From contig CAYJVY010000007.1 in the NCBI GenBank assembly GCA_964373795.1, positions 21,385-85,384 of the forward strand: DNA of 64,000 nucleotides, given 5' to 3'. The translations under genes were made by a program, and so were the position numbers. Every line of letters begins with the position of its first letter. The first letter of the stretch is position 1. Origin of the DNA: an uncultured archaeon. Its GTDB lineage: Archaea; Iainarchaeota; Iainarchaeia; Iainarchaeales; DATDZZ01. The notes beneath the pieces are model-generated. The model had not been told where the DNA came from. It made no database searches and saw only the letters and a list, made by a program, of their open reading frames with translations. Of this stretch, positions 6,504-24,441 are shown piece after piece.

Positions 6504-7484
6504 CTATATTGTTTGAATTTCTGTTACTTGAAATAAAACATTTTCTTTTAAAGAATTCAAGTTTTCTGTATTACTTAAAGAAGGAGTTGAAGGATTGGAA
6601 ATTCTTAAAATTAAAGGGTTTTGAGAATTTGCAAGAACAATGAATTGATTTTCAAGTAAATCAATTGCTTTAATTACTTCAATTGTTTGCATTTCATTAT
6701 TGATTTTAATGTTATAATAACTTGTTTCGCCATTGTTTGTTAAATCAATTCCGTAAATTCCTTTTTGAGGCAAAAACTTTTTCTTTTCTTTAATCCATTG
6801 AGGTTCGACATTGAAGTCAAAATTAATGCTTGTTTCTCTAGTAGTTGAGAGCTCATCAAAAGTTAAATCGCTTAACCAAATCAAACTGTTTTCAACATTT
6901 TTTTCTCCTTCAAGCCATTGAAATGGACTTGAAATAATTGCTCCGTTTGCAACAACATTTTCTTCTATTTCTCCTAATTTAAATTTTTCTGCAGTTAAAG
7001 TTCCATTAATTTTTTCACTTGCATTTAATTCAAATGAAATTTTGATTTTTTCTTTTGGCTTGAATTCAAGTACTTGAATTTGAATTTCTGTTCCTTCAAC
7101 TGTTGATTCTTTTGAAACAGGTTTAATTGTTAGCTTCATTCCTTGAGCTGAAAGGCTTTTACTTAACTTTTCTGCGTTTTCTTTTTCGTTTTTATTTAAT
7201 TCTTTTTCAGAGAAAAAAGGATTTGAGTAAACAGGAACTTTATTTATTGGATTGCCTTCAACTTTTGATACTCCTGGAATAGTGTCAGATTTGTTTACAA
7301 GAACATCATTATTTGTGGAAATATTTGTAACTGGTTTTAGTGGATTTAATAAAATGAATGCAACAATTACTGCAAGCACTATTCCTGCAATTATGTAAAC
7401 TGCTATTGCTGTTTCTTTTTTTTCTGATTGCATTGAATAATTTGTTTCTTGATTTCTTTTAGGCATTGTATTAATTACCTTCAT
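6504..7484 (-). CDS. membrane-anchored extracellular protein, unknown function
   Basis: 326 aa with one N-terminal transmembrane helix followed by an S/T/N-rich extracellular domain. Lies 22 bp downstream of the P-type ATPase on the same strand. Confidence 0.45.
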   Translation of the reverse strand: MKVINTMPKRNQETNYSMQSEKKETAIAVYIIAGIVLAVIVAFILLNPLKPVTNISTNNDVLVNKSDTIPGVSKVEGNPINKVPVYSNPFFSEKELNKNEKENAEKLSKSLSAQGMKLTIKPVSKESTVEGTEIQIQVLEFKPKEKIKISFELNASEKINGTLTAEKFKLGEIEENVVANGAIISSPFQWLEGEKNVENSLIWLSDLTFDELSTTRETSINFDFNVEPQWIKEKKKFLPQKGIYGIDLTNNGETSYYNIKINNEMQTIEVIKAIDLLENQFIVLANSQNPLILRISNPSTPSLSNTENLNSLKENVLFQVTEIQTI

Positions 7485-10546: not shown

Positions 10547-11635
10547 ATGAGCTTAAAAGTTTTTGGAAAACTAATTTTAGAAGACGGCTCTGTTTTTGTT
10601 GGAGAAAGCTTTGGTTTTGAAAACCCTGTTTCAGGAGAAGTTGTTTTTAACACTGGAATGGTTGGCTATCCTGAAACCTTAACAGATCCTTCTTATAAAG
10701 GGCAAATTTTGTGTTTAACTTATCCTTTAATAGGTAATTATGGGGTTCCTGCAAAAAAATTGGATGAGTTTGGAATTCTTGAAAACTTTGAATCAAATCA
10801 AATTCATGTTTCAGGATTAATTGTTTCAGAGTATTCTGTTGCACATAATCATTGGAATTCAGTGAAAAGTCTTTCAGATTGGTTGAAGGAGGAAAAAATT
10901 CCTGCTTTAACAGGCATTGATGTTCGAGCTTTAACTAAAAAATTGCGTGAAAAAGGAACAATGCTTGGCAAAATAGTTTTTCAAGGAAAAGATATTAAAA
11001 TTTTTGATCCAAATAAAACTAATTTGGTTGCAGAAGTATCAATTTCTAAGCCAGTTTTTTATGAAAATAATTCTAGGAAAACAATTGCTTTAATTGATAC
11101 TGGAGTAAAAAATAATATTATTCGTTCACTGCTTTCCAGAAAAGTAAATGTTTTACGCATTCCCTGGAATTATGATTTATTTAATTCAAAGCATTGCAAT
11201 GACTTTAATGCAATAATGTTATCTAATGGCCCTGGAAATCCAAAGCAATGCATTGAAACAATTCAATCAATTCAAACTGCTTTAGAGTATAAGACTCCGA
11301 TTTTTGGAGTGTGTTTAGGAAATCAATTGCTTGCACTTGCTTCTGGAGCTAATACCTTTAAATTAAAATATGGACATAGAAGTCAAAACCAGCCCGCCTT
11401 GGAATTTAATTCAAAGAAGTGTTTTATTACTTCTCAAAATCATGGGTTTGCAGTTGACAAGAAAACTCTGAAGAAGAATTGGAGTGAATGGTTTGTTAAT
11501 GCAAACGATGAAACAAATGAAGGAATTAAGCATGCAAAACTTCCTTTTATGAGTGTTCAATTTCATCCAGAAGCCTGTCCAGGGCCAGTTGACACTAATT
11601 TTTTGTTTGACGAGTTTTTGAAAAAGGTGAAATGA
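10547..11635 (+). CDS. carA: carbamoyl-phosphate synthase small subunit (glutamine amidotransferase)
   Basis: Class I GATase triad region GVCLGNQLL…HGFAV, and a CPSase small-subunit N-terminal domain. Confidence 0.9.
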   Translation: MSLKVFGKLILEDGSVFVGESFGFENPVSGEVVFNTGMVGYPETLTDPSYKGQILCLTYPLIGNYGVPAKKLDEFGILENFESNQIHVSGLIVSEYSVAHNHWNSVKSLSDWLKEEKIPALTGIDVRALTKKLREKGTMLGKIVFQGKDIKIFDPNKTNLVAEVSISKPVFYENNSRKTIALIDTGVKNNIIRSLLSRKVNVLRIPWNYDLFNSKHCNDFNAIMLSNGPGNPKQCIETIQSIQTALEYKTPIFGVCLGNQLLALASGANTFKLKYGHRSQNQPALEFNSKKCFITSQNHGFAVDKKTLKKNWSEWFVNANDETNEGIKHAKLPFMSVQFHPEACPGPVDTNFLFDEFLKKVK

Positions 11636-12387
11636 TTTTGGTTGAATTACATTTTGCAGTGCTTTTAGCAATTGTTGCATTCATTGCAGGCTTGTATGGA
11701 TCAATTTCTGGAGGTTCTTCTCTGATTTTATTGCCTACTCTTTTATTCATTGGTTTAAGTCCTGGAATTGCTATTGGAACTAATAGATTATCTGTTACTT
11801 TTGGATCTATTTTTGCTTTAATTAGTTTTCATAAAAAAGTTGAATTTTTTTGGAAGGAAATTATTTTCTTTCTTTTACTTGCAACAATTGGAGCATTTCT
11901 TGGAGCAGTTTTCATTGTTTCAATTGATGAAAAAATTGCTTTAAAAATTGTGGGAACAATAATGCTTGTAACTGGTTTGCTTATGTTGTTTGGCAAGAAA
12001 GATAAAAAGTTTTTTGAAAACGTTAACCCAAAAATTAAAGACCTTATTTCAGGAATTATTATTTTTCTTATTAGTTTTTATAGAGGTTTTTTTGGAGGAG
12101 GAGCAGGAATTTTTGTTCGAAGCATTTTCATTAATATTAAACATTTTGAGCCTGTTAAAGCAATTTATTATGCAATTTTTACTGGATTTATTGCATCAAT
12201 TGCTGCATTAGGGGTTTTTACTTTTACTCAAAGCATTGATTTAGATTATGGATTAATTGCAGTTGCTTTTGGAAGCGTAGGAGCTTTTCTTGGCCCGAAA
12301 ATTGTTTTAAGTAAAGGAAGTAATTGGACTAAAAAATTTGTTGCATTAATTGAAATAATTTCCGGAATATATTTTTTAATAAAATAA
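11632..12387 (+). CDS. TauE/SafE (DUF81) family anion exporter-like membrane protein
   Basis: 251 aa. Motif GGSSLILLPTLLFIGLSPGIAIGTNRL plus a second repeat typical of TauE/SafE. The start overlaps the carA stop (ATGA). Confidence 0.7.
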   Translation: MILVELHFAVLLAIVAFIAGLYGSISGGSSLILLPTLLFIGLSPGIAIGTNRLSVTFGSIFALISFHKKVEFFWKEIIFFLLLATIGAFLGAVFIVSIDEKIALKIVGTIMLVTGLLMLFGKKDKKFFENVNPKIKDLISGIIIFLISFYRGFFGGGAGIFVRSIFINIKHFEPVKAIYYAIFTGFIASIAALGVFTFTQSIDLDYGLIAVAFGSVGAFLGPKIVLSKGSNWTKKFVALIEIISGIYFLIK

Positions 12388-17032: not shown

Positions 17033-17812
17033 TTACTTTTTTCCCGGTCTGCGTTTTTTCAAGCTCCTCCAAAGCTTGTAAAAATGTTTTCTAAAAGATT
17101 TAGCTAAATCTTCGCTTTCAATCAAAATTGTTGTAATTACGGGTTCCCAAATAATTATTATTGTTTTATTTCCATAAACTGCAATTGGAATGTTATGGAA
17201 AAATTCTTTTGGAATAAATCTATATTCAGATGTTTTAGCTCCAAAAGTTTTGCATCCTTCAAAGGTTATTAGTTTTTCTTTAAGTGCTCTAGTTGAATCA
17301 ACTTCTTTAGTGTATTGCTTGAAATGCAAGTAATCTAAATCGTAAAAATTTTGTTCATCTATTCCCCATCCAACGAATTCTCCGCCTGTTTTAAGGCCAT
17401 CTTTATAAATGAAATGAATTGCTTCTAACCCTTTGAATACTTCTACTTTTACATCCTTTTTTTCTGTTTGAGTGATTTTTTTCAAATCAGCTATGCTGTT
17501 TTCAAAATTTTTTTGTTTTTGTTTTAATAATTCGTTAATGTGTTCAGGATTTGTAGATGAAAAATATTTAACATTTTCTTTAATGTTGGATGAAACAAAA
17601 CCTTTTTCTTGTAACTTTAAAAGCATGTAATAAGTTGTTGTTCTGTCAAAACCCAAATCTTCAGCAACCTTGCTTGCAGGAGCAGAACCTCTTTTAAGTA
17701 AGCTAACATATATTTTTGTTTCATTTTCAGTTAACCCTATTTCTTGCAAAGGAGCTGTATTCATTAACAAATTAGTATTTAAACTATTATTTAAATGTTG
17801 TGAATTTTTCAC
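17033..17812 (-). CDS. TrmB-family transcriptional regulator
   Basis: N-terminal wHTH LTENETKIYVSLLKRGSAPASKVAEDLGFDRTTTYYMLLKLQEKGFV matches the TrmB N-domain, followed by a C-terminal ligand domain. The alternative start Met17 would place the start at 17764. Confidence 0.65.
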   Translation of the reverse strand: MKNSQHLNNSLNTNLLMNTAPLQEIGLTENETKIYVSLLKRGSAPASKVAEDLGFDRTTTYYMLLKLQEKGFVSSNIKENVKYFSSTNPEHINELLKQKQKNFENSIADLKKITQTEKKDVKVEVFKGLEAIHFIYKDGLKTGGEFVGWGIDEQNFYDLDYLHFKQYTKEVDSTRALKEKLITFEGCKTFGAKTSEYRFIPKEFFHNIPIAVYGNKTIIIIWEPVITTILIESEDLAKSFRKHFYKLWRSLKKRRPGKK

Positions 17813-18186
17813 AGCAAGAATATTTAAGCATCTTTTGCATCAATTACTGTATGCAAGGAAAACTCTATTCTGGAAAGCTTTTACGCGGAGACGTTGAAAT
17901 AAAAGTTCCTGCGGAAAAAATTAAATATGAATCTAGAACTGAAATAGTTTTAGATTTTATTCAAAGACATATTCTTCAAGAAAAATACAGACTCAAATTT
18001 TTGTTTAATGGATTTTTTCTCTTGCTTTCAATTTTGCTTTCAATGTTTCTTTCCCCATTATTTTTAATTATTGCTTTTCATTTTTTCAAAAAAGCGATGA
18101 GGTTTAGTGCTAATTATGGTTACACTAAACATATTTCTGAATCAATGGATGCAAAGCAAATGGCTATGATGGATTAAGGTGAAAAA

Positions 18187-18504
18187 ATGTTATTGAAAGG
18201 TATTGCCGCAAGTAAAGGAACTGTGAAAGGAAAGGTCAGAATTGTAAGTAAAAACTCGTCTCCATATGTTTTTGAAGAAGGAGAAGTTTTAGTTACAGAA
18301 ATAACTGATCCTTCAATGGTTCTACTTATTGCAAAAGCTTCTGCAATAATTACTGATATTGGTGGAATAATGAGTCATCCCGCAATTGTTGCTCGTGAGT
18401 TTGGAATTCCCTGCATTGTTGGAGTAAAAAATGCGACAAAGATTTTGAAAAATGGTCAAGAGGTTGTTGTTAATGGAGAAACTGGAGAAATTAAATTATA
18501 CTGA
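18187..18504 (+). CDS. stand-alone PEP-utilising enzyme mobile (phosphohistidine) domain protein
   Basis: 105 aa. Motif …ITDIGGIMSHPAIVAREFGIPCIVGVKNAT… is the swivelling His domain of PEP synthase/PPDK. No PPDK_N or PEP-binding domain is adjacent. Confidence 0.7.
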   Translation: MLLKGIAASKGTVKGKVRIVSKNSSPYVFEEGEVLVTEITDPSMVLLIAKASAIITDIGGIMSHPAIVAREFGIPCIVGVKNATKILKNGQEVVVNGETGEIKLY

Positions 18505-18556
18505 TTTTAAATGGATTAAGCCTTTTCAGGAATCAATTTTTCATACTCTTGGAGAA

Positions 18557-19573
18557 ATGGATTTATCAACTATTGAACCATTTAATTGGCTTGATTTTCA
18601 TGTCTTGTTTGATAAACCTTTTTTAGAGAAAACTTTGAATTTAATTAATAAATGCTATGAAAAAAGAATTTCAATTAAAAAATTAGTTAAAGAATTTGAT
18701 AATCCTTCTGAATTAAGAGTAATTCTTTACTTTCTTTTAACTGACATAAAATCAGTTAAGCTAAGTAAACCACAGAGATTAAAAATTGCTTATTTTTTTA
18801 AAAGAATTTTAGACGAATCAGTTTTAGAAGATCATTTTGGTTTTGAATCAACAATAATTCACTCTGATATACAGGTTCATGAACTGCTTAAATTAATTCC
18901 TTTTTTCCATGCAAATTCTAGTCTTACTTTTAATGCTGCTAGAATTTTTAATGCAGGTTATCATTTGACTAATGGATTATATTTTGATTTTTACATGGAT
19001 TTTTCTCATGAAAATTATGGGCCTTATATGATTAAAGAAGACAGCGAAACAGAAACTTTTATTATTAAAAAATTTCACAACTTAAAACCGTTGTGTTTAT
19101 GGCCTGAAATGATTGAATCGAATTTCAATAATATAACTATTTATGCAATCTATAAAAATATTGAATTCAAGTCTCAATTTGTTTCAAGTCATGCTTATCT
19201 TAATTCTTCAGCAAAAGATTCGTTAATTAAAATTGCAATTAAAGTTGATGAAAAATTTCTTTCCGAGCAAGAAATTAGCATTCTAGCAGATCACCTAGAG
19301 GTAGTTTCAGTTAATCAGTGGAATAGACTTAAATCTCTTTCAATTTCTGAGCTTAAAGAAAAAGGTGTTTGGATTAGAAATTATTCGATGAAAAAATTAT
19401 TTGATTTAGTTGAACTTGATTGGAAGCCTTCAATTGAAATGATTAAAGCAGTTAAAGAAAGAGAACTTGAAAGGAAGTGGAAGTACTATGTACTTGAAGG
19501 AAAAGGAAAAGAGTATTGGAGTAAAATCTTAGACCCGCGAGAAGAATTTTTTATAGAGGATGATGTGCAATGA
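18557..19573 (+). CDS. hypothetical protein
   Basis: The ORF track gives 18452..19573, which overlaps the upstream gene. The first in-frame ATG after that gene's stop is at 18557. No motifs recognised. The stop overlaps the start of the next gene (ATGA). Confidence 0.45.
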   Translation: MDLSTIEPFNWLDFHVLFDKPFLEKTLNLINKCYEKRISIKKLVKEFDNPSELRVILYFLLTDIKSVKLSKPQRLKIAYFFKRILDESVLEDHFGFESTIIHSDIQVHELLKLIPFFHANSSLTFNAARIFNAGYHLTNGLYFDFYMDFSHENYGPYMIKEDSETETFIIKKFHNLKPLCLWPEMIESNFNNITIYAIYKNIEFKSQFVSSHAYLNSSAKDSLIKIAIKVDEKFLSEQEISILADHLEVVSVNQWNRLKSLSISELKEKGVWIRNYSMKKLFDLVELDWKPSIEMIKAVKERELERKWKYYVLEGKGKEYWSKILDPREEFFIEDDVQ

Positions 19574-20148
19574 AATTAATTTCTTTTGGTTTGAAGGAAC
19601 TTGCTTTAACTGTAATTATTTATTTAACAATATTTTTTTTAATTCCTCTAGAGTTTGATGTATTTTTGCATCTAACTATTTTCTATGTAGTTCATTTAAT
19701 TGTTTTATTTTTTTTGAGTTTATTTAAAGAGAAAAAAACAATTATCTTTGATTTTGTGGATGTAGTGAGTGATAATAATTATTTTACTGAGCCTTTTAGA
19801 ATTCGTCCTGGAATTCCTCAAATAGTGAAAAATTTGAGGAAAGGTCATGAAGTTGTTTTGTTTACTAATAACAATAAATTGGTTGCCGATAATATTGCAA
19901 AAGAATTAAAACTCGGAAAAATGTTTGATAAACTTTATAGTTCTGGAGATGTTGGAATTGCTAAACCCGATCCGAAAGCTTACAAGGCCTTACTGAATAA
20001 ATTAAGTGTTTCCTCAGATAAAGCAGTTATGATTGACGACAATAAGGATAATATTGAAGGGGCCATCAAAGCTGGCTTAGATGGAGTATTATTTAAAAGC
20101 ACGGGAGAATTATTGTTTGATTTACAGTCAAGAAAACTCTTAAGGTAA
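19570..20148 (+). CDS. membrane-anchored HAD-superfamily hydrolase
   Basis: Two N-terminal transmembrane helices, then motif I IIFDFVDVV (DxDxV), SGDVGIAKPDPKAY, and MIDDNKDNIEGA. Confidence 0.6.
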   Translation: MKLISFGLKELALTVIIYLTIFFLIPLEFDVFLHLTIFYVVHLIVLFFLSLFKEKKTIIFDFVDVVSDNNYFTEPFRIRPGIPQIVKNLRKGHEVVLFTNNNKLVADNIAKELKLGKMFDKLYSSGDVGIAKPDPKAYKALLNKLSVSSDKAVMIDDNKDNIEGAIKAGLDGVLFKSTGELLFDLQSRKLLR

Positions 20149-21677: not shown

Positions 21678-21750
21678 AGCCCCGTAGTGTAGCGGTCAAT
21701 CACGGTGGGTTCTGAACCCGCAAACAGGAGTTCGACTCTCCTCGGGGCTA
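21678..21750 (+). tRNA. tRNA-Gln (anticodon CTG)
   Basis: Hand-folded cloverleaf of 73 nt: acceptor AGCCCCG/CGGGGCT with A1-U72; anticodon stem GTGGG/CCCGC; loop TTCTGAA; T arm AGGAG-TTCGACT-CTCCT; discriminator A; no encoded CCA. Confidence 0.8.
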
Positions 21751-21797
21751 TGAAAATTCTTTTAATTAGTATTACTTTATTTTTTAATGTTGATTTA

Positions 21798-22505
21798 ATG
21801 CAAAAAAAACTTGCAATTTTTGATGTTCACGGAACACTTGTTTTTGCTTTGCCTGCATGGGACAAAGCTTACAGCAAAACAGTTTTTGAATTATTTAGAG
21901 TGAATGGTTCAATCTATGATGCTTTCTTTTTTGCTGCCCCAACAATTCAAGAAGTTTCAAAGGCAATTGCAAAATCAAAAGGCGTTTCTGAAAAAGAATT
22001 AAAAGAAAAAGAGCACTTGATTTTGAAAACCTTTGAAAAGCATGCAATAAACGCTTTACACGAATTGCCTCCCAAAATCTTGCTTGGAGTGAAAGAATTG
22101 CTTAAACTATTGCATGAAAACAACTTTGTTATTGCTTTGTATACTGGAGATTCTTTTAATAATAGTAAACTGATTTTAAAACAAACTTTTTTGAAACAAT
22201 TTTTCAATGAAAAATTGTTTGCCTGTGCAAGTGACTCTGGAGAACTTAGTAGAAGAAAGACTTTGGAAGAAGCAATTAAAAAAGCTGAGAAAAAGTTTGG
22301 AAAATTTGAAAAGAAAAATATTTTTGTTTTTGATGATTCAACTAAAGGATTAAATGCAGGAAAAGAGCTTGAAATTAAAACTGTTGCAGTTAATACAGTG
22401 CCAGAAAAATTTGAAAAACTGGAAAAATGTAATCCAAATTACTTGTTTAAGGATTTTAGTTCTCCTGAAAAGGTATTTAAAACAATTTTTCAAGAAAATT
22501 TGTGA
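21798..22505 (+). CDS. HAD-superfamily hydrolase (beta-phosphoglucomutase-like)
   Basis: Motif I LAIFDVHGTLV (DxHGT). The ORF track starts inside the tRNA at 21705; the Met at 21798 (or 21750) is the more plausible start. Confidence 0.6.
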   Translation: MQKKLAIFDVHGTLVFALPAWDKAYSKTVFELFRVNGSIYDAFFFAAPTIQEVSKAIAKSKGVSEKELKEKEHLILKTFEKHAINALHELPPKILLGVKELLKLLHENNFVIALYTGDSFNNSKLILKQTFLKQFFNEKLFACASDSGELSRRKTLEEAIKKAEKKFGKFEKKNIFVFDDSTKGLNAGKELEIKTVAVNTVPEKFEKLEKCNPNYLFKDFSSPEKVFKTIFQENL

Positions 22506-22915: not shown

Positions 22916-23296
22916 TTGAGGGAGAAAATGTTTGTAAAAAAATTCAATGACTGCAAAGAAATAATTGCAGCTGATGGCACGATTCTGCGGGAAACCTTGC
23001 ATCCAATTAGAAGTAATGTGAAAATTGATTATAGTATTGCTCATGCAAAGGTTTTGCCTGGCAAGAAATCCAAAATTCATTCTTTGGCTTTTTCAGAAGT
23101 ATACTACATTATTAGAGGAAAAGGAGTAATGCATATTGGAAATGAATTTCAAAAAGTGAAAGCAAGGGACACAATTTTTATTCCGCCTAAAACAAATCAA
23201 TGGATTGAAAATACTGGGAAAACGGTTTTAGAGTTTCTAGCAATTGTTAATCCTGCTTGGGAACTAGAAGCAGAATTGGGAGAGCAAAAGAATTAG
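22916..23296 (+). CDS. cupin-domain protein
   Basis: 126-aa small beta-barrel pattern: …VYYIIRGKGVMHIGNEFQKVKARDTIFIPP…. Confidence 0.55.
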   Translation: MREKMFVKKFNDCKEIIAADGTILRETLHPIRSNVKIDYSIAHAKVLPGKKSKIHSLAFSEVYYIIRGKGVMHIGNEFQKVKARDTIFIPPKTNQWIENTGKTVLEFLAIVNPAWELEAELGEQKN

Positions 23297-24441
23297 CTCA
23301 TCATGAATTTAATTACTTGAGGAAATAAAGTTATATAGTGTGGATTGCGAAGCATTTGTGGAATGAATTTTGTTAAAAACTCCATGTCTCCTTTTTCGGA
23401 TAAATAGTCTTGAACTCTTAATTGAACTAGTTTTTTAATTAATTTATTTATTTCTTCATTGCTTAATGAATTGAAAAAATTTCTAATTTTTGAATGAAGC
23501 TTTAATTCTCTATGGATTCTGGATAAATTTTTTTCATATTTTTCTAGAGGGGTTTTGTGTTTTAAATGATCGGAAATTGTTTTGCTTAAAACATCTCCAG
23601 CCATCATTCCAAATAATATTCCTCCTCCAGTTGTTTTTTTGCAGTGAAAAGCTGCATCTCCAACTAAAAACATGTTGTCTTTAAATAATGGGCTTAAAGG
23701 ATCTCCGTAAGGAATTAGCGAGGAATCAATTTCAAATTGATCTATTTGTAAGTTTTTTGCTTCAATGAATTCTTGAAATTTTTCTTTCACGTTTGCTCCT
23801 AAATTTGTTCCAAACCCGATTTTAGCTGTTTCTTTGTTTTCTGGAATTATCCATGCAAAATAGTTTGGAGCAAAATTTCCTATATGCATTTCCACAAAAT
23901 CTGGATTGAAAGAGCCTTTAGCGCGAATTTGAATTGAGTGAATAAAGTTTTCTTTTGGAACGGTTATTCCCATTAATTCCCTTACTTTAGAGTTAACTCC
24001 GTCTGCTCCAACTAAAAACCTTGTTTTAAGCATTTCTCCTCTGTTCTCTTTTTTAATGAAAATTTTTTCGCCTTTCACGTCAAGTAATTGTGCTTGAGTC
24101 AGTATTTCTGCTCCTGCATTTTGTGCTTTTTTTGCAAGCAATTTATCAAATTTTGCTCTATCCACTACGAATGCAACAAAGTCTTTTCTTTTCACTTCAA
24201 GCATTGAATTATCTGGAGAAAAAATTTTTGCTCCTTTAACTACATTTAATACAATGTCTTCCAAGTCAATTCCTAGTTCTTTTACTCCGCTTCTACTAAC
24301 TAGTCCAGAGCAATGGGTCGGCACTCCTATTTGAGGATGCTCTTCTAATACTTTTACTTCCCATCCTTCGAACGCAAGTTTTTCAGCTGTTCTTAAACCT
24401 GCAGGCCCTCCTCCTACTATTGTAATCATTGTTTCAGTCAT
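23293..24441 (-). CDS. FAD-dependent geranylgeranyl reductase family (digeranylgeranylglycerophospholipid reductase-like)
   Basis: N-terminal IVGGGPAGLRTAEKLA Rossmann motif, a THCSGLVS region, and a GDAAFHCKKTTGGGI C-terminal FAD motif. Length and pattern fit archaeal lipid reductases. Confidence 0.8.
   Translation of the reverse strand: MTETMITIVGGGPAGLRTAEKLAFEGWEVKVLEEHPQIGVPTHCSGLVSRSGVKELGIDLEDIVLNVVKGAKIFSPDNSMLEVKRKDFVAFVVDRAKFDKLLAKKAQNAGAEILTQAQLLDVKGEKIFIKKENRGEMLKTRFLVGADGVNSKVRELMGITVPKENFIHSIQIRAKGSFNPDFVEMHIGNFAPNYFAWIIPENKETAKIGFGTNLGANVKEKFQEFIEAKNLQIDQFEIDSSLIPYGDPLSPLFKDNMFLVGDAAFHCKKTTGGGILFGMMAGDVLSKTISDHLKHKTPLEKYEKNLSRIHRELKLHSKIRNFFNSLSNEEINKLIKKLVQLRVQDYLSEKGDMEFLTKFIPQMLRNPHYITLFPQVIKFMMS

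What the first reader, a model, noticed from the sequence alone, without database searches (positions are those of the whole stretch)
18187..19573. Orphan PEP-utilising-enzyme phosphohistidine (swivel) domain as a 105-aa stand-alone protein, followed by an unknown 340-aa protein and a membrane HAD phosphatase
The His-domain (ITDIGGIMSHPAIVAREFGIPCIVG) normally sits between the nucleotide-binding and PEP-binding domains of PEP synthase/PPDK. Here neither partner domain is present in the window.

The downstream ORF has no recognisable fold, and the next gene is a membrane-tethered HAD phosphatase with an overlapping start. A TrmB sugar regulator is divergent upstream.

This could be a split phosphotransfer module or a novel phosphorelay using the mobile domain as a carrier.
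Basis: partly seen in the sequence, partly recalled or inferred. Interest (0 to 1): 0.55.

Follow-up and report, generated by a model that had tools for sequence, protein, structure and literature searches.

The report
Free-standing phosphohistidine carrier with new partner
A small protein that is only the phosphate-carrying "swivel" piece of PEP-synthase-type enzymes is paired with a protein of a previously undescribed family and fold. The pair recurs in DPANN archaea and CPR bacteria and looks like a kinase built from separate parts, whose substrate is unknown and whose ATP-binding part is not encoded nearby in the archaea.

Summary
ORF 18187-18504 is a 105-aa stand-alone PEP-utilizers (PF00391) domain with the catalytic motif T56xxGGxxxH64. 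No PPDK_N or PEP-binding barrel exists anywhere in the 64 kb.

The downstream ORF starts at 18473, not 18557. It is 366 aa and overlaps the swivel gene by 32 nt. It founds an unannotated family, called X here, with 233 cluster representatives. AlphaFold gives pLDDT 95, and Foldseek finds no PDB match.

In 16 independent loci (Woesearchaeota/Nanoarchaeota and CPR bacteria) X is adjacent to, or fused with, the same swivel subtype. A homologous divergent TrmB regulator is present in most. A phosphatase-like gene usually accompanies the pair: HAD, histidine phosphatase or metallophosphatase.

In three CPR loci a PPDK_N ATP-grasp is adjacent to X or fused to it. In the archaeal loci none lies within about 8 kb.

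Best reading: a multi-part dikinase of the RPH/PpsAB/HpeHI kind, with a free swivel carrier and a new substrate domain, coupled to a membrane-tethered capless HAD. It is neither a decayed ppsA nor an ordinary split PEP synthase.

The substrate, the archaeal phosphodonor and the role of the phosphatase are unknown. I rate it a new variant of a known kind, of moderate to high interest.

The parts
17033..17812 (-). TrmB-family transcriptional regulator, divergent from the operon. The likely true start is Met17 at 17764.
   Evidence: PF01978 E=6.7e-15. Full-length homologues sit divergently upstream of the swivel-X pair in L003, L005-L010, L012, L013 and L021, with E=1e-17 to 1e-60. Homologues begin at the residue that aligns with Met17-Pro21.
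17851..18177 (+). Small ORF of 108 aa (125 aa from GTG 17800) with one hydrophobic segment. It is the first ORF of the operon and ends 9 nt before the swivel gene.
   Evidence: Called as a 108-aa gene on an independent Logan assembly. It has no Pfam, NCBIfam, PADLOC or PHROG hit and no homologue in the other loci. Its status as a gene is uncertain.
18187..18504 (+). Free-standing phosphohistidine swivel (carrier) protein of subtype 'swA', 105 aa, catalytic His64.
   Evidence: PF00391 E=5e-28. Matches the RPH and PEP synthase His domains in the PDB. All 67 closest database relatives are stand-alone proteins of 76-159 aa. The His is retained in 80/80 stand-alone swivels examined. An AGGTGA Shine-Dalgarno-like motif lies upstream.
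18473..19573 (+). Protein X, 366 aa, a new family and fold. It is the predicted partner (acceptor-substrate subunit) of the swivel carrier.
   Evidence: 233 cluster representatives by exhaustive phmmer, 47 of them below 1e-30. No Pfam, NCBIfam or PDB sequence hit, even with a 92-sequence profile. AlphaFold pLDDT 95.3 and pTM 0.93. Best Foldseek match in the PDB has E=0.36. It is found fused to swA (16 of 154), to PPDK_N (1) and to Ndom (6), and lies next to swA in every locus that has upstream sequence.
19570..20148 (+). Membrane-tethered, cap-less HAD-superfamily phosphatase-like protein of 192 aa, with start overlapping the X stop (ATGA).
   Evidence: PF00702 E=3e-19, PF13419 E=9e-17, NIF E=1.3e-8, all above their cut-offs. 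Motif I reads D61-F-V63-D-V, so Asp+2 is Val. An orthologue that includes the two-segment hydrophobic N-terminus lies directly downstream of X in L014 (E=8e-19).

Best explanation
The 105-aa protein is a free-standing phosphohistidine carrier (His64). The overlapping 366-aa gene encodes its dedicated partner, X, a protein of a new family and fold. Together they form the conserved core of a cassette that is shared by DPANN archaea and CPR bacteria. The cassette is controlled by a divergent TrmB-like regulator and accompanied by a phosphatase-like protein.

The most likely mechanism is that of the swivel-domain dikinases (PEP synthase, rifampin phosphotransferase, PpsAB/HpeHI), here executed by separate polypeptides:
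1. An ATP-grasp (PPDK_N) subunit loads His64.
2. The loaded carrier docks on X.
3. X passes the phosphoryl group to its own, still unknown, substrate.
4. The membrane-tethered, cap-less HAD that is translationally coupled to X then removes a phosphate, either from that product or from the carrier itself.

Shown: the domain identities, the new family and its confident model, the conserved linkage and the fusions.

Inferred: the direction of transfer, that X binds the acceptor substrate, and that in this archaeon an ATP-grasp encoded outside the 64 kb supplies the phosphate.
For: Swivel identity and an intact catalytic motif.

X family: 233 representatives, a high-confidence model, and fusions swA+X (13), Ndom+swA+X (2), X+swA (1) and X+PPDK_N (1) among 154 members.

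Gene order swA then X, with overlaps of 8-38 nt, in the window and in L002, L004, L007, L009, L010, L012, L013, L014 and L018. The two genes are adjacent without overlap in L006, L008, L021 and L023. The pair is also present in L003, L005 and L016.

PPDK_N lies directly downstream of X in two CPR genomes (L021, L023) and is fused to X in L004.

The TrmB homologue is divergent upstream in most loci.

A phosphatase-like gene is present in most cassettes:
- A membrane-anchored HAD in the window and in L014.
- A 210-aa HAD-like protein in L002, L006-L008, L010 and L012.
- His_Phos_1 in L004 (above its cut-off), and proteins with an RHG motif in L016, L022 and L023.
- Metallophos in L005.

Precedent for dikinases split into components, in which the swivel shuttles between separate sites: HpeHI, CreHI and PpsAB (PMC12167813) and RPH (PMC4844700).
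Against: No PPDK_N or other recognised phosphodonor domain lies in the 64-kb window or within about 8 kb in any of the 11 archaeal loci. The first step is therefore unsupported for this organism.

Only three loci, all bacterial, link X to PPDK_N.

A kinase and a phosphatase acting on one substrate in a single operon would be a futile cycle unless there is more chemistry or compartmentation.

X has no recognisable substrate or phosphate-binding motif, and its conserved residues are largely aromatic or structural.

No activity has been measured for any member.
Confidence: 0.55

Rival explanations
1. ATP-grasp-independent phosphorelay. In the archaeal cassettes X (or Ndom, or Y) is itself the phosphodonor enzyme, taking phosphate from a phosphorylated metabolite. 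The free swivel then acts as an HPr-like diffusible carrier that hands the phosphate on, for example to the nucleophile Asp of the HAD-like proteins that lack the Asp+2 acid/base (a His-to-Asp transfer), or to a second module (swB plus Ndom).
For: No PPDK_N in any archaeal locus or in the window. Two distinct swivel classes, each tied to its own partner (swA with X, swB with Ndom), sit in one operon with a HAD-like gene between them in L007 and L010. Both HAD lineages in the cassettes keep the nucleophile Asp but not Asp+2: D-F-V in the window, D-I-H in L014 and D-V-L in the 210-aa family. Any second-substrate domain of a dikinase is reversible in principle, and HpeH alone catalyses transphosphorylation (PMC12167813).
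Against: The fused or adjacent PPDK_N in CPR relatives shows that the ancestral partner of swA and X can be an ATP-grasp. Transfer from a swivel to another swivel, or from a swivel to a HAD, has no precedent. The ATP-grasp may simply be encoded elsewhere in the genome.
Confidence: 0.15
2. Regulatory phosphohistidine switch. The swivel's phosphorylation state is a signal rather than a catalytic intermediate. X sets or reads it, the associated phosphatases are phosphohistidine phosphatases that reset it, and the output is the TrmB-like regulator or a metabolic enzyme.
For: The phosphatase superfamilies found in the cassettes (His_Phos_1, HAD, Metallophos) are those that contain known phosphohistidine phosphatases: SixA and PGAM5, and LHPP (PMC7948535 and PMC11277029); the inclusion of PP1/PP2A-type metallophosphatases is from memory. 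The window HAD is cap-less and NIF-like, a type that from general knowledge of the HAD superfamily acts on macromolecules. The TrmB regulator is conserved. A PPDK-derived enzyme that works as a regulatory histidine autokinase is known: VadK (PMC13400623).
Against: There is no evidence of any contact between the swivel and TrmB. The domain fusions (swA+X, X+PPDK_N) look like an enzyme rather than a signalling chain. The TrmB C-terminal domain has no known phospho-acceptor motif.
Confidence: 0.1
3. Ordinary split PEP synthase or PPDK, or a decayed remnant of ppsA.
For: The swivel scores well against PEP synthase models (NF005057, E=4e-34, covering only positions 357-460 of 798).
Against: X is neither a TIM barrel nor an ATP-grasp, and no PEP synthase, PPDK or RPH chain is among the 50 Foldseek matches listed, the best having E=0.36. 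A 92-sequence profile does not hit any PDB sequence. All 67 closest relatives of the swivel are stand-alone proteins, with the His conserved in 80/80. The pair is conserved at 25-40% identity across archaea and bacteria, which is incompatible with decay. Stand-alone X homologues share the same N-terminus, so no frameshift is needed, and an independent assembly gives the same gene calls.
Confidence: 0.03

Closest known systems
Two-component small-molecule dikinases HpeHI, CreHI and PpsAB (phenylphosphate synthase), and single-chain rifampin phosphotransferase (RPH)
   Same: A swivel His domain with the T/SxxGGxxxH motif. In relatives, a PPDK_N-type ATP-grasp supplied as a separate polypeptide. 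A non-PEP second substrate domain. Best PDB sequence match of the swivel is RPH 5fbs, E=1e-23.
   Different: In those enzymes the swivel is fused to a rifampin-binding-type substrate domain. Here it is a free 105-aa protein, and its partner X has no sequence or Foldseek similarity to RPH. No ATP-grasp is encoded near the archaeal cassettes. A phosphatase and a TrmB regulator are fixed companions.
PEP synthase (EC 2.7.9.2) and pyruvate, phosphate dikinase
   Same: A homologous swivel domain and, by inference, the same His-mediated phosphotransfer.
   Different: There is no PPDK_N and no PEP-utilizers_C barrel in the window. The swA subtype has M/T-S-H-P instead of the T-C/S-H-A motif that carries the regulatory Thr of PEP synthase.
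Glucan, water dikinase with the phosphoglucan phosphatases SEX4 and LSF2 (plant starch)
   Same: A dikinase with a swivel His and a C-terminal PPDK_N-like domain (the same order as swA followed by X-PPDK_N in L004). It works in a cycle with a dedicated phosphatase, and a sugar-type regulator (TrmB) is nearby. This comparison rests on general knowledge and on PMC13553574 as listed.
   Different: There are no carbohydrate-binding modules and no detected similarity of X to any GWD domain. This is a functional analogy only and was not tested.
PTS enzyme I, HPr or NPr, and the phosphohistidine phosphatase SixA
   Same: A small diffusible phosphohistidine carrier acting between enzymes, with a histidine-phosphatase-superfamily enzyme that can discharge it (PMC7948535). 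The EI N-terminal domain contains a PF00391 swivel.
   Different: No EI PEP-binding domain, HPr or EII components are present. The carrier here is the swivel domain itself.
VadK (Rv1127c), a PPDK-derived histidine autokinase
   Same: A swivel-domain protein family that has lost the PEP-binding domain and taken on a non-canonical role (PMC13400623).
   Different: VadK keeps PPDK_N fused to its swivel. It has no X-like partner and is not part of a cassette with a phosphatase.

Membership tests
PEP-utilising enzyme mobile (swivel) domain, PF00391 | Profile match above the curated threshold over the whole domain | tested here: met
   96.9 bits against a cut-off of 23.1, profile positions 1-72 of 72.
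PEP-utilising enzyme mobile (swivel) domain, PF00391 | Catalytic His within T/SxxGGxxxH | tested here: met
   T56-D-I-G-G-I-M-S-H64, read from the sequence. The motif definition is from PMC12167813. The His is conserved in 80/80 stand-alone relatives.
PEP-utilising enzyme mobile (swivel) domain, PF00391 | His is phosphorylated and transfers the phosphoryl group | not testable with these tools
   Needs biochemistry.
PEP synthase / PPDK | N-terminal PPDK_N ATP-grasp domain in the same protein or locus | tested here: not met
   No PPDK_N in any ORF of the window.
PEP synthase / PPDK | C-terminal PEP/pyruvate-binding TIM barrel (PEP-utilizers_C) | tested here: not met
   No Pfam hit in the window. 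The X model is a helical region plus a 6-7-strand antiparallel sheet, and none of the 50 Foldseek matches listed is a PEP synthase or PPDK chain.
RPH-type small-molecule dikinases (including two-component HpeHI, CreHI and PpsAB) | ATP-grasp component that loads the swivel | tested here: inconclusive
   Absent from the window and from the archaeal loci. Present adjacent to X or fused to it in the CPR relatives L004, L021 and L023.
RPH-type small-molecule dikinases (including two-component HpeHI, CreHI and PpsAB) | Rifampin-binding-type substrate domain fused N-terminally to the swivel | tested here: not met
   The swivel is free-standing. X shows no sequence or Foldseek similarity to RPH entries 5fbs or 5hv1.
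RPH-type small-molecule dikinases (including two-component HpeHI, CreHI and PpsAB) | ATP + substrate + H2O gives AMP + phospho-substrate + Pi | not testable with these tools
   No substrate is known.
HAD-superfamily phosphatase (gene 19570-20148) | Profile match; motif I nucleophile Asp, motif II Thr/Ser, motif III Lys, motif IV acidic pair | tested here: met
   PF00702 70.5 bits and PF13419 62.2 bits. D61; a Thr in the VVLFTNNN segment; the Lys of IAKPD; and the acidic pair in MIDDNKDN, read from the sequence.
HAD-superfamily phosphatase (gene 19570-20148) | Asp+2 general acid/base (DxD) | tested here: not met
   Motif I is D61-F-V63. The orthologue in L014 has D-I-H, and the 210-aa HAD-like family has D-V-L.
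TrmB sugar-sensing regulators | N-terminal TrmB winged helix-turn-helix | tested here: met
   PF01978 55.1 bits.
TrmB sugar-sensing regulators | C-terminal TrmB sugar-binding domain | tested here: not met
   No second Pfam domain was reported at E up to 0.1. The C-terminal ~150 aa are conserved only among the cassette-linked regulators, and are duplicated in the ~370-aa versions.

The most novel reading that the evidence does not exclude
In DPANN archaea the free swivel protein is a diffusible phosphocarrier of an ATP-grasp-independent relay. X (and, where present, Ndom with its own swivel class) exchanges phosphate between metabolites and the carrier. The HAD-like proteins that lack the Asp+2 acid/base accept or discharge the carrier's phosphate. 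This would be a PTS-like His (to Asp) phosphotransfer network, built from dikinase parts, in organisms with minimal metabolism.
Probability: 0.15. Interest if true: 0.85.

Novelty: new variant of a known kind. Interest (0 to 1): 0.6.

Why it matters
Swivel-domain dikinases are normally single chains, or two components in which the swivel stays fused to a substrate domain. Here the swivel is a separate 105-aa carrier. It serves a partner protein of an undescribed family whose confident model has no detectable PDB neighbour. The set is conserved, together with its regulator and a phosphatase, across the two great radiations of ultra-small, host-dependent prokaryotes, DPANN and CPR, whose genomes retain few genes without a reason.

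Identifying the substrate of X would add a new phosphorylation reaction to the sparse metabolic maps of these organisms. Finding what loads the carrier in the archaea would show whether the swivel domain can work as a general, HPr-like phosphocarrier. One Patescibacteria locus (L023) has five swivel-bearing paralogues but a single ATP-grasp gene. This suggests, by inference, that one ATP-grasp may serve many substrate modules.

Tried and rejected
1. Frameshift or pseudogene origin of the 105-aa ORF. I considered this because homology to X starts exactly where the swivel ORF stops. I rejected it for three reasons. First, 129 of 154 family members are stand-alone and share the same N-terminus. 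Second, swA/X overlaps of 8-38 nt recur in different relative frames. Third, an independent assembly gives identical gene calls.

2. Cryptic PPDK_N or PEP-binding barrel in X. Rejected.

3. Anti-phage defence or phage origin. X has no PADLOC or PHROG hit.

4. Homology of X to Ndom, or of Ndom to the N-terminal domains of the swivel-fused paralogues in L023 and L010. The hhalign probabilities were below 1%.

5. Identity of the accessory families. Profiles of Ndom, Y and the 210-aa HAD-like family against PDB sequences gave nothing. The reading of Y as an HD or HExxH hydrolase rests only on motifs seen by eye and is not claimed.

6. Operator or promoter in the TrmB/operon intergenic region. Only weak AT-rich palindromes were found, and promoter-like sites were not above shuffled expectation.

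7. Technical dead ends:
- The word-indexed homologue search found only the query itself, or 6 proteins with the profile.
- Single-sequence AlphaFold was useless, at pLDDT 38.

8. Lipid or polyprenol substrate. This was suggested by faint helix-grip/START-like Foldseek hits, the membrane-tethered HAD, and the neighbouring cis-prenyltransferase and geranylgeranyl reductase genes. Those neighbours are not conserved in other loci and the fold hits are insignificant, so this stays a lead only.
Full report
**What is in the window**

The region lies in DNA of about 28-30% G+C. Four plus-strand ORFs are packed head to tail:
- A 108-aa ORF with one hydrophobic segment, 17851-18177.
- The 105-aa swivel gene, 18187-18504.
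- A 366-aa gene, 18473-19573.
- A 192-aa HAD gene, 19570-20148.

A TrmB-family regulator (17033-17812, minus strand) is divergent upstream. The spacings are 9 nt, a 32-nt overlap and a 4-nt ATGA overlap. Shine-Dalgarno-like AGGTGA, GAGGT and GAGGA motifs precede the last three starts. This arrangement is typical of a translationally coupled operon. An independent Logan assembly of a public run carries the same genes with the same calls.

**The swivel protein**

The 105 residues are a complete PF00391 domain and nothing else (E=5e-28). NCBIfam models of PEP synthase, of the RPH-like 'PRK06241' and 'PRK08296' proteins, of PigC/RedH and of pyruvate kinase all match only through their swivel segment. 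The closest solved structures are the C-terminal His domain of rifampin phosphotransferase and the central domain of PEP synthases.

The catalytic signature T/SxxGGxxxH (PMC12167813) is present as T56...H64. All 67 closest relatives in the 5.8-billion-protein collection are themselves stand-alone proteins of 76-159 aa, annotated at most as 'PEP-utilizing enzyme'. The His is kept in all 80 stand-alone swivels I collected. The free-standing form is therefore a conserved state, not a fragment.

**The downstream protein, X**

X has no Pfam, NCBIfam, PADLOC, PHROG or PDB sequence match. The word-indexed search found only the protein itself. An exhaustive phmmer search of 1.84 billion cluster representatives found 233 relatives, 47 of them below 1e-30.

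These relatives align from residue 18-22 of the 373-codon ORF, and stand-alone members share the same N-terminal segment.

With a 92-sequence alignment, AlphaFold2 gives pLDDT 95.3 and pTM 0.93. The model has an N-terminal bundle of helices, a 6-7-stranded antiparallel sheet (residues about 179-258) and C-terminal helices. Foldseek finds nothing significant in the PDB (best E=0.36, TM at most 0.15) or in BFVD. The family profile finds no PDB sequence.

The conserved polar positions are R82, D120, D172, E180, H240 and D259, alongside many conserved aromatic residues.

**Linkage of X to the swivel**

Among 154 family members the architectures are:

| Architecture | Members |
|---|---|
| X alone | 129 |
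| swivel + X | 13 |
| Ndom + swivel + X | 2 |
| X + swivel | 1 |
| Ndom + X | 4 |
| X + X (hits; two are full tandem proteins) | 4 |
| X + PPDK_N | 1 |

I examined 16 independent loci besides the window. Eight are Woesearchaeota, Nanoarchaeota or mislabelled DPANN MAG contigs from the GTDB set. The others were reached through exact-protein look-ups. In every locus with sequence upstream of X, a swivel gene of the same subtype lies next to it or is fused to it, often overlapping it by 8-38 nt.

The swivels fall into two classes:
- swA (motif GG-x-[MT]-S-H-P), the window type, is always paired with X.
- swB (motif GG-L-T-C-H-A, PEP-synthase-like) is always paired with a second unknown domain, Ndom (about 320 aa).

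In about a third of the loci the swB-Ndom pair sits in the same operon, sometimes preceded by a further unknown protein, Y, of 370-390 aa.

**Other fixed companions**

A TrmB homologue that aligns over its full length with the window's regulator (E=1e-17 to 1e-60) is divergent upstream in L003, L005-L010, L012, L013 and L021. These include two bacterial loci.

A phosphatase-like gene is present in most cassettes, but it comes from different superfamilies:
- The membrane-tethered HAD of the window has an orthologue, including the hydrophobic N-terminus, directly downstream of X in L014 (E=8e-19).
- A 210-aa HAD-like family occurs in six archaeal loci (Pfam Hydrolase, E=3.5e-5).
- Histidine-phosphatase-superfamily proteins occur in L004 (above the Pfam cut-off). 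Proteins bearing the RHG motif occur in L016, L022 and L023.
- A metallophosphatase occurs in L005.

Both HAD lineages keep the nucleophile Asp but lack the Asp+2 acid/base: D-F-V in the window, D-I-H in L014 and D-V-L in the 210-aa family. The window HAD has no cap insertion and also scores as NIF-type.

**The phosphodonor**

The window contains no PPDK_N and no PEP-utilizers_C. This was tested in two ways: Pfam on essentially all ORFs of 250 aa or more, and a PPDK_N profile against the six-frame translation.

None of the archaeal loci has one within about 8 kb. Three CPR-bacterial loci do:
- L021: TrmB | RHG phosphatase | swA | X | stand-alone PPDK_N (350 aa).
- L023: swA | X | PPDK_N (314 aa), at the end of an array of five paralogous 'unknown domain + swivel' proteins.
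- L004: swA | X-PPDK_N fusion.

These three ATP-grasp proteins are close relatives of one another (E about 1e-116 to 1e-131).

**Interpretation**

The fusions and the gene order make it very likely (about 0.85) that swA and X work together, with His64 as the shuttling residue. The PPDK_N links in CPR relatives point to the chemistry of the swivel dikinases. In these enzymes an ATP-grasp loads the His, and the swivel carries the phosphate to a second site where a substrate is phosphorylated. This has been established for RPH and for the two-component HpeHI, CreHI and PpsAB enzymes (PMC12167813; PMC4844700). On this reading X is the second-site subunit.

Three things differ from all characterised members. 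The swivel is a separate protein. The second-site protein is a new family. A phosphatase and a TrmB regulator always travel with the pair.

Two things remain unexplained. The first is who loads His64 in the archaea. The second is what the phosphatases do:
- A product phosphatase would parallel the cycle of glucan, water dikinase with phosphoglucan phosphatase.
- A phosphohistidine phosphatase acting on the carrier is equally compatible. SixA and PGAM5 belong to the His_Phos superfamily and LHPP to the HAD superfamily (PMC7948535, PMC11277029). From memory, LHPP also lacks Asp+2. Cap-less HADs generally act on macromolecules.

I could not discriminate between these options.

**Rivals**

- An ATP-grasp-independent relay (0.15) and a regulatory phosphohistidine switch (0.10) are not excluded for the archaeal cassettes.
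- The 'ordinary split PEP synthase or decayed ppsA' reading (0.03) is contradicted by the fold of X, the conservation of the pair across domains of life, and the intact His.

**Verdict**

This is a conserved split phosphotransfer module with a new partner family. It is best filed as a new variant of the swivel-dikinase kind, with an open and testable question about its phosphodonor and substrate. Interest is 0.6.

Noticed in passing
L023:1-12364 (Patescibacteria MAG GCA_043803385.1): An array of five paralogous proteins (353-502 aa), each an unknown N-terminal domain plus a C-terminal swivel. Also present are two RHG-motif phosphatase-like genes, an APH-type kinase, then swA, X and a single PPDK_N. 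It looks like one ATP-grasp serving many substrate modules.
   Followed up: partly
L007:4497-6939, L010:4643-7016, L013:5261-7681, L003:3318-7083, L016:1207-3470: A second module in the same operon. It consists of a distinct swivel class (swB, PEP-synthase-like T-C-H motif) paired with an unknown ~320-aa domain (Ndom). It is often preceded by an unknown 370-390-aa protein (Y) with conserved HELxH and HD motifs. Neither has a Pfam or PDB match.
   Followed up: partly
window:16400-17029, 19570-20148, 21798-22505: Three HAD-superfamily genes lie within 6 kb. None has the canonical DxD motif I: they read FDLFNT, FDFVDV and FDVHGT.
   Followed up: partly
window:21678-21750: tRNA-Gln(CTG). The mechanical ORF 21705-22505 begins inside it, so the real HAD gene probably starts at Met 21798.
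   Followed up: yes
window:20916-21614 and 23293-24441: A cis-prenyltransferase (UppS-type) and a geranylgeranyl reductase flank the locus, with MazG and cupin genes between them. These isoprenoid-lipid neighbours are not conserved next to X in other genomes.
   Followed up: partly
window:29862-63127: A very large sugar-nucleotide and glycan cluster. It holds at least seven NDP-sugar epimerase/dehydratase genes, three nucleotidyltransferases, two UDP-glucose dehydrogenases, a PGM/PMM, two C-methyltransferases, a B12-radical-SAM enzyme, a SPASM radical-SAM enzyme and six glycosyltransferases.
   Followed up: no
window:45073-46872 and 6504-7484: ORFs of 599 aa and 326 aa with no Pfam match.
   Followed up: no
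window:24888-28181: A 1097-aa protein with Big_13, Big_7 and fn3 Ig-like repeats, probably a surface protein.
   Followed up: no
L010:9807-12187: Immediately downstream of the cassette lies a second TrmB gene, divergent from a 498-aa protein made of an unknown 420-aa region plus a C-terminal swivel. Swivel systems paired with TrmB may be a recurring theme in these archaea.
   Followed up: no
L019:6229-8381 (Nocardia puris) and L024:10001-10971: Stand-alone swivels also occur in unrelated contexts. One is split off a 594-aa epimerase/Rph_4th protein near a PPDK_N-swivel gene and a tyrosine-phosphatase-like gene. The other lies next to an unknown 197-aa protein.
   Followed up: no
window:10547-15649: carA and carB (carbamoyl-phosphate synthase) are separated by a TauE/SafE-family membrane protein gene (11632-12387). 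The carB identification is by eye and was not run against Pfam.
   Followed up: no
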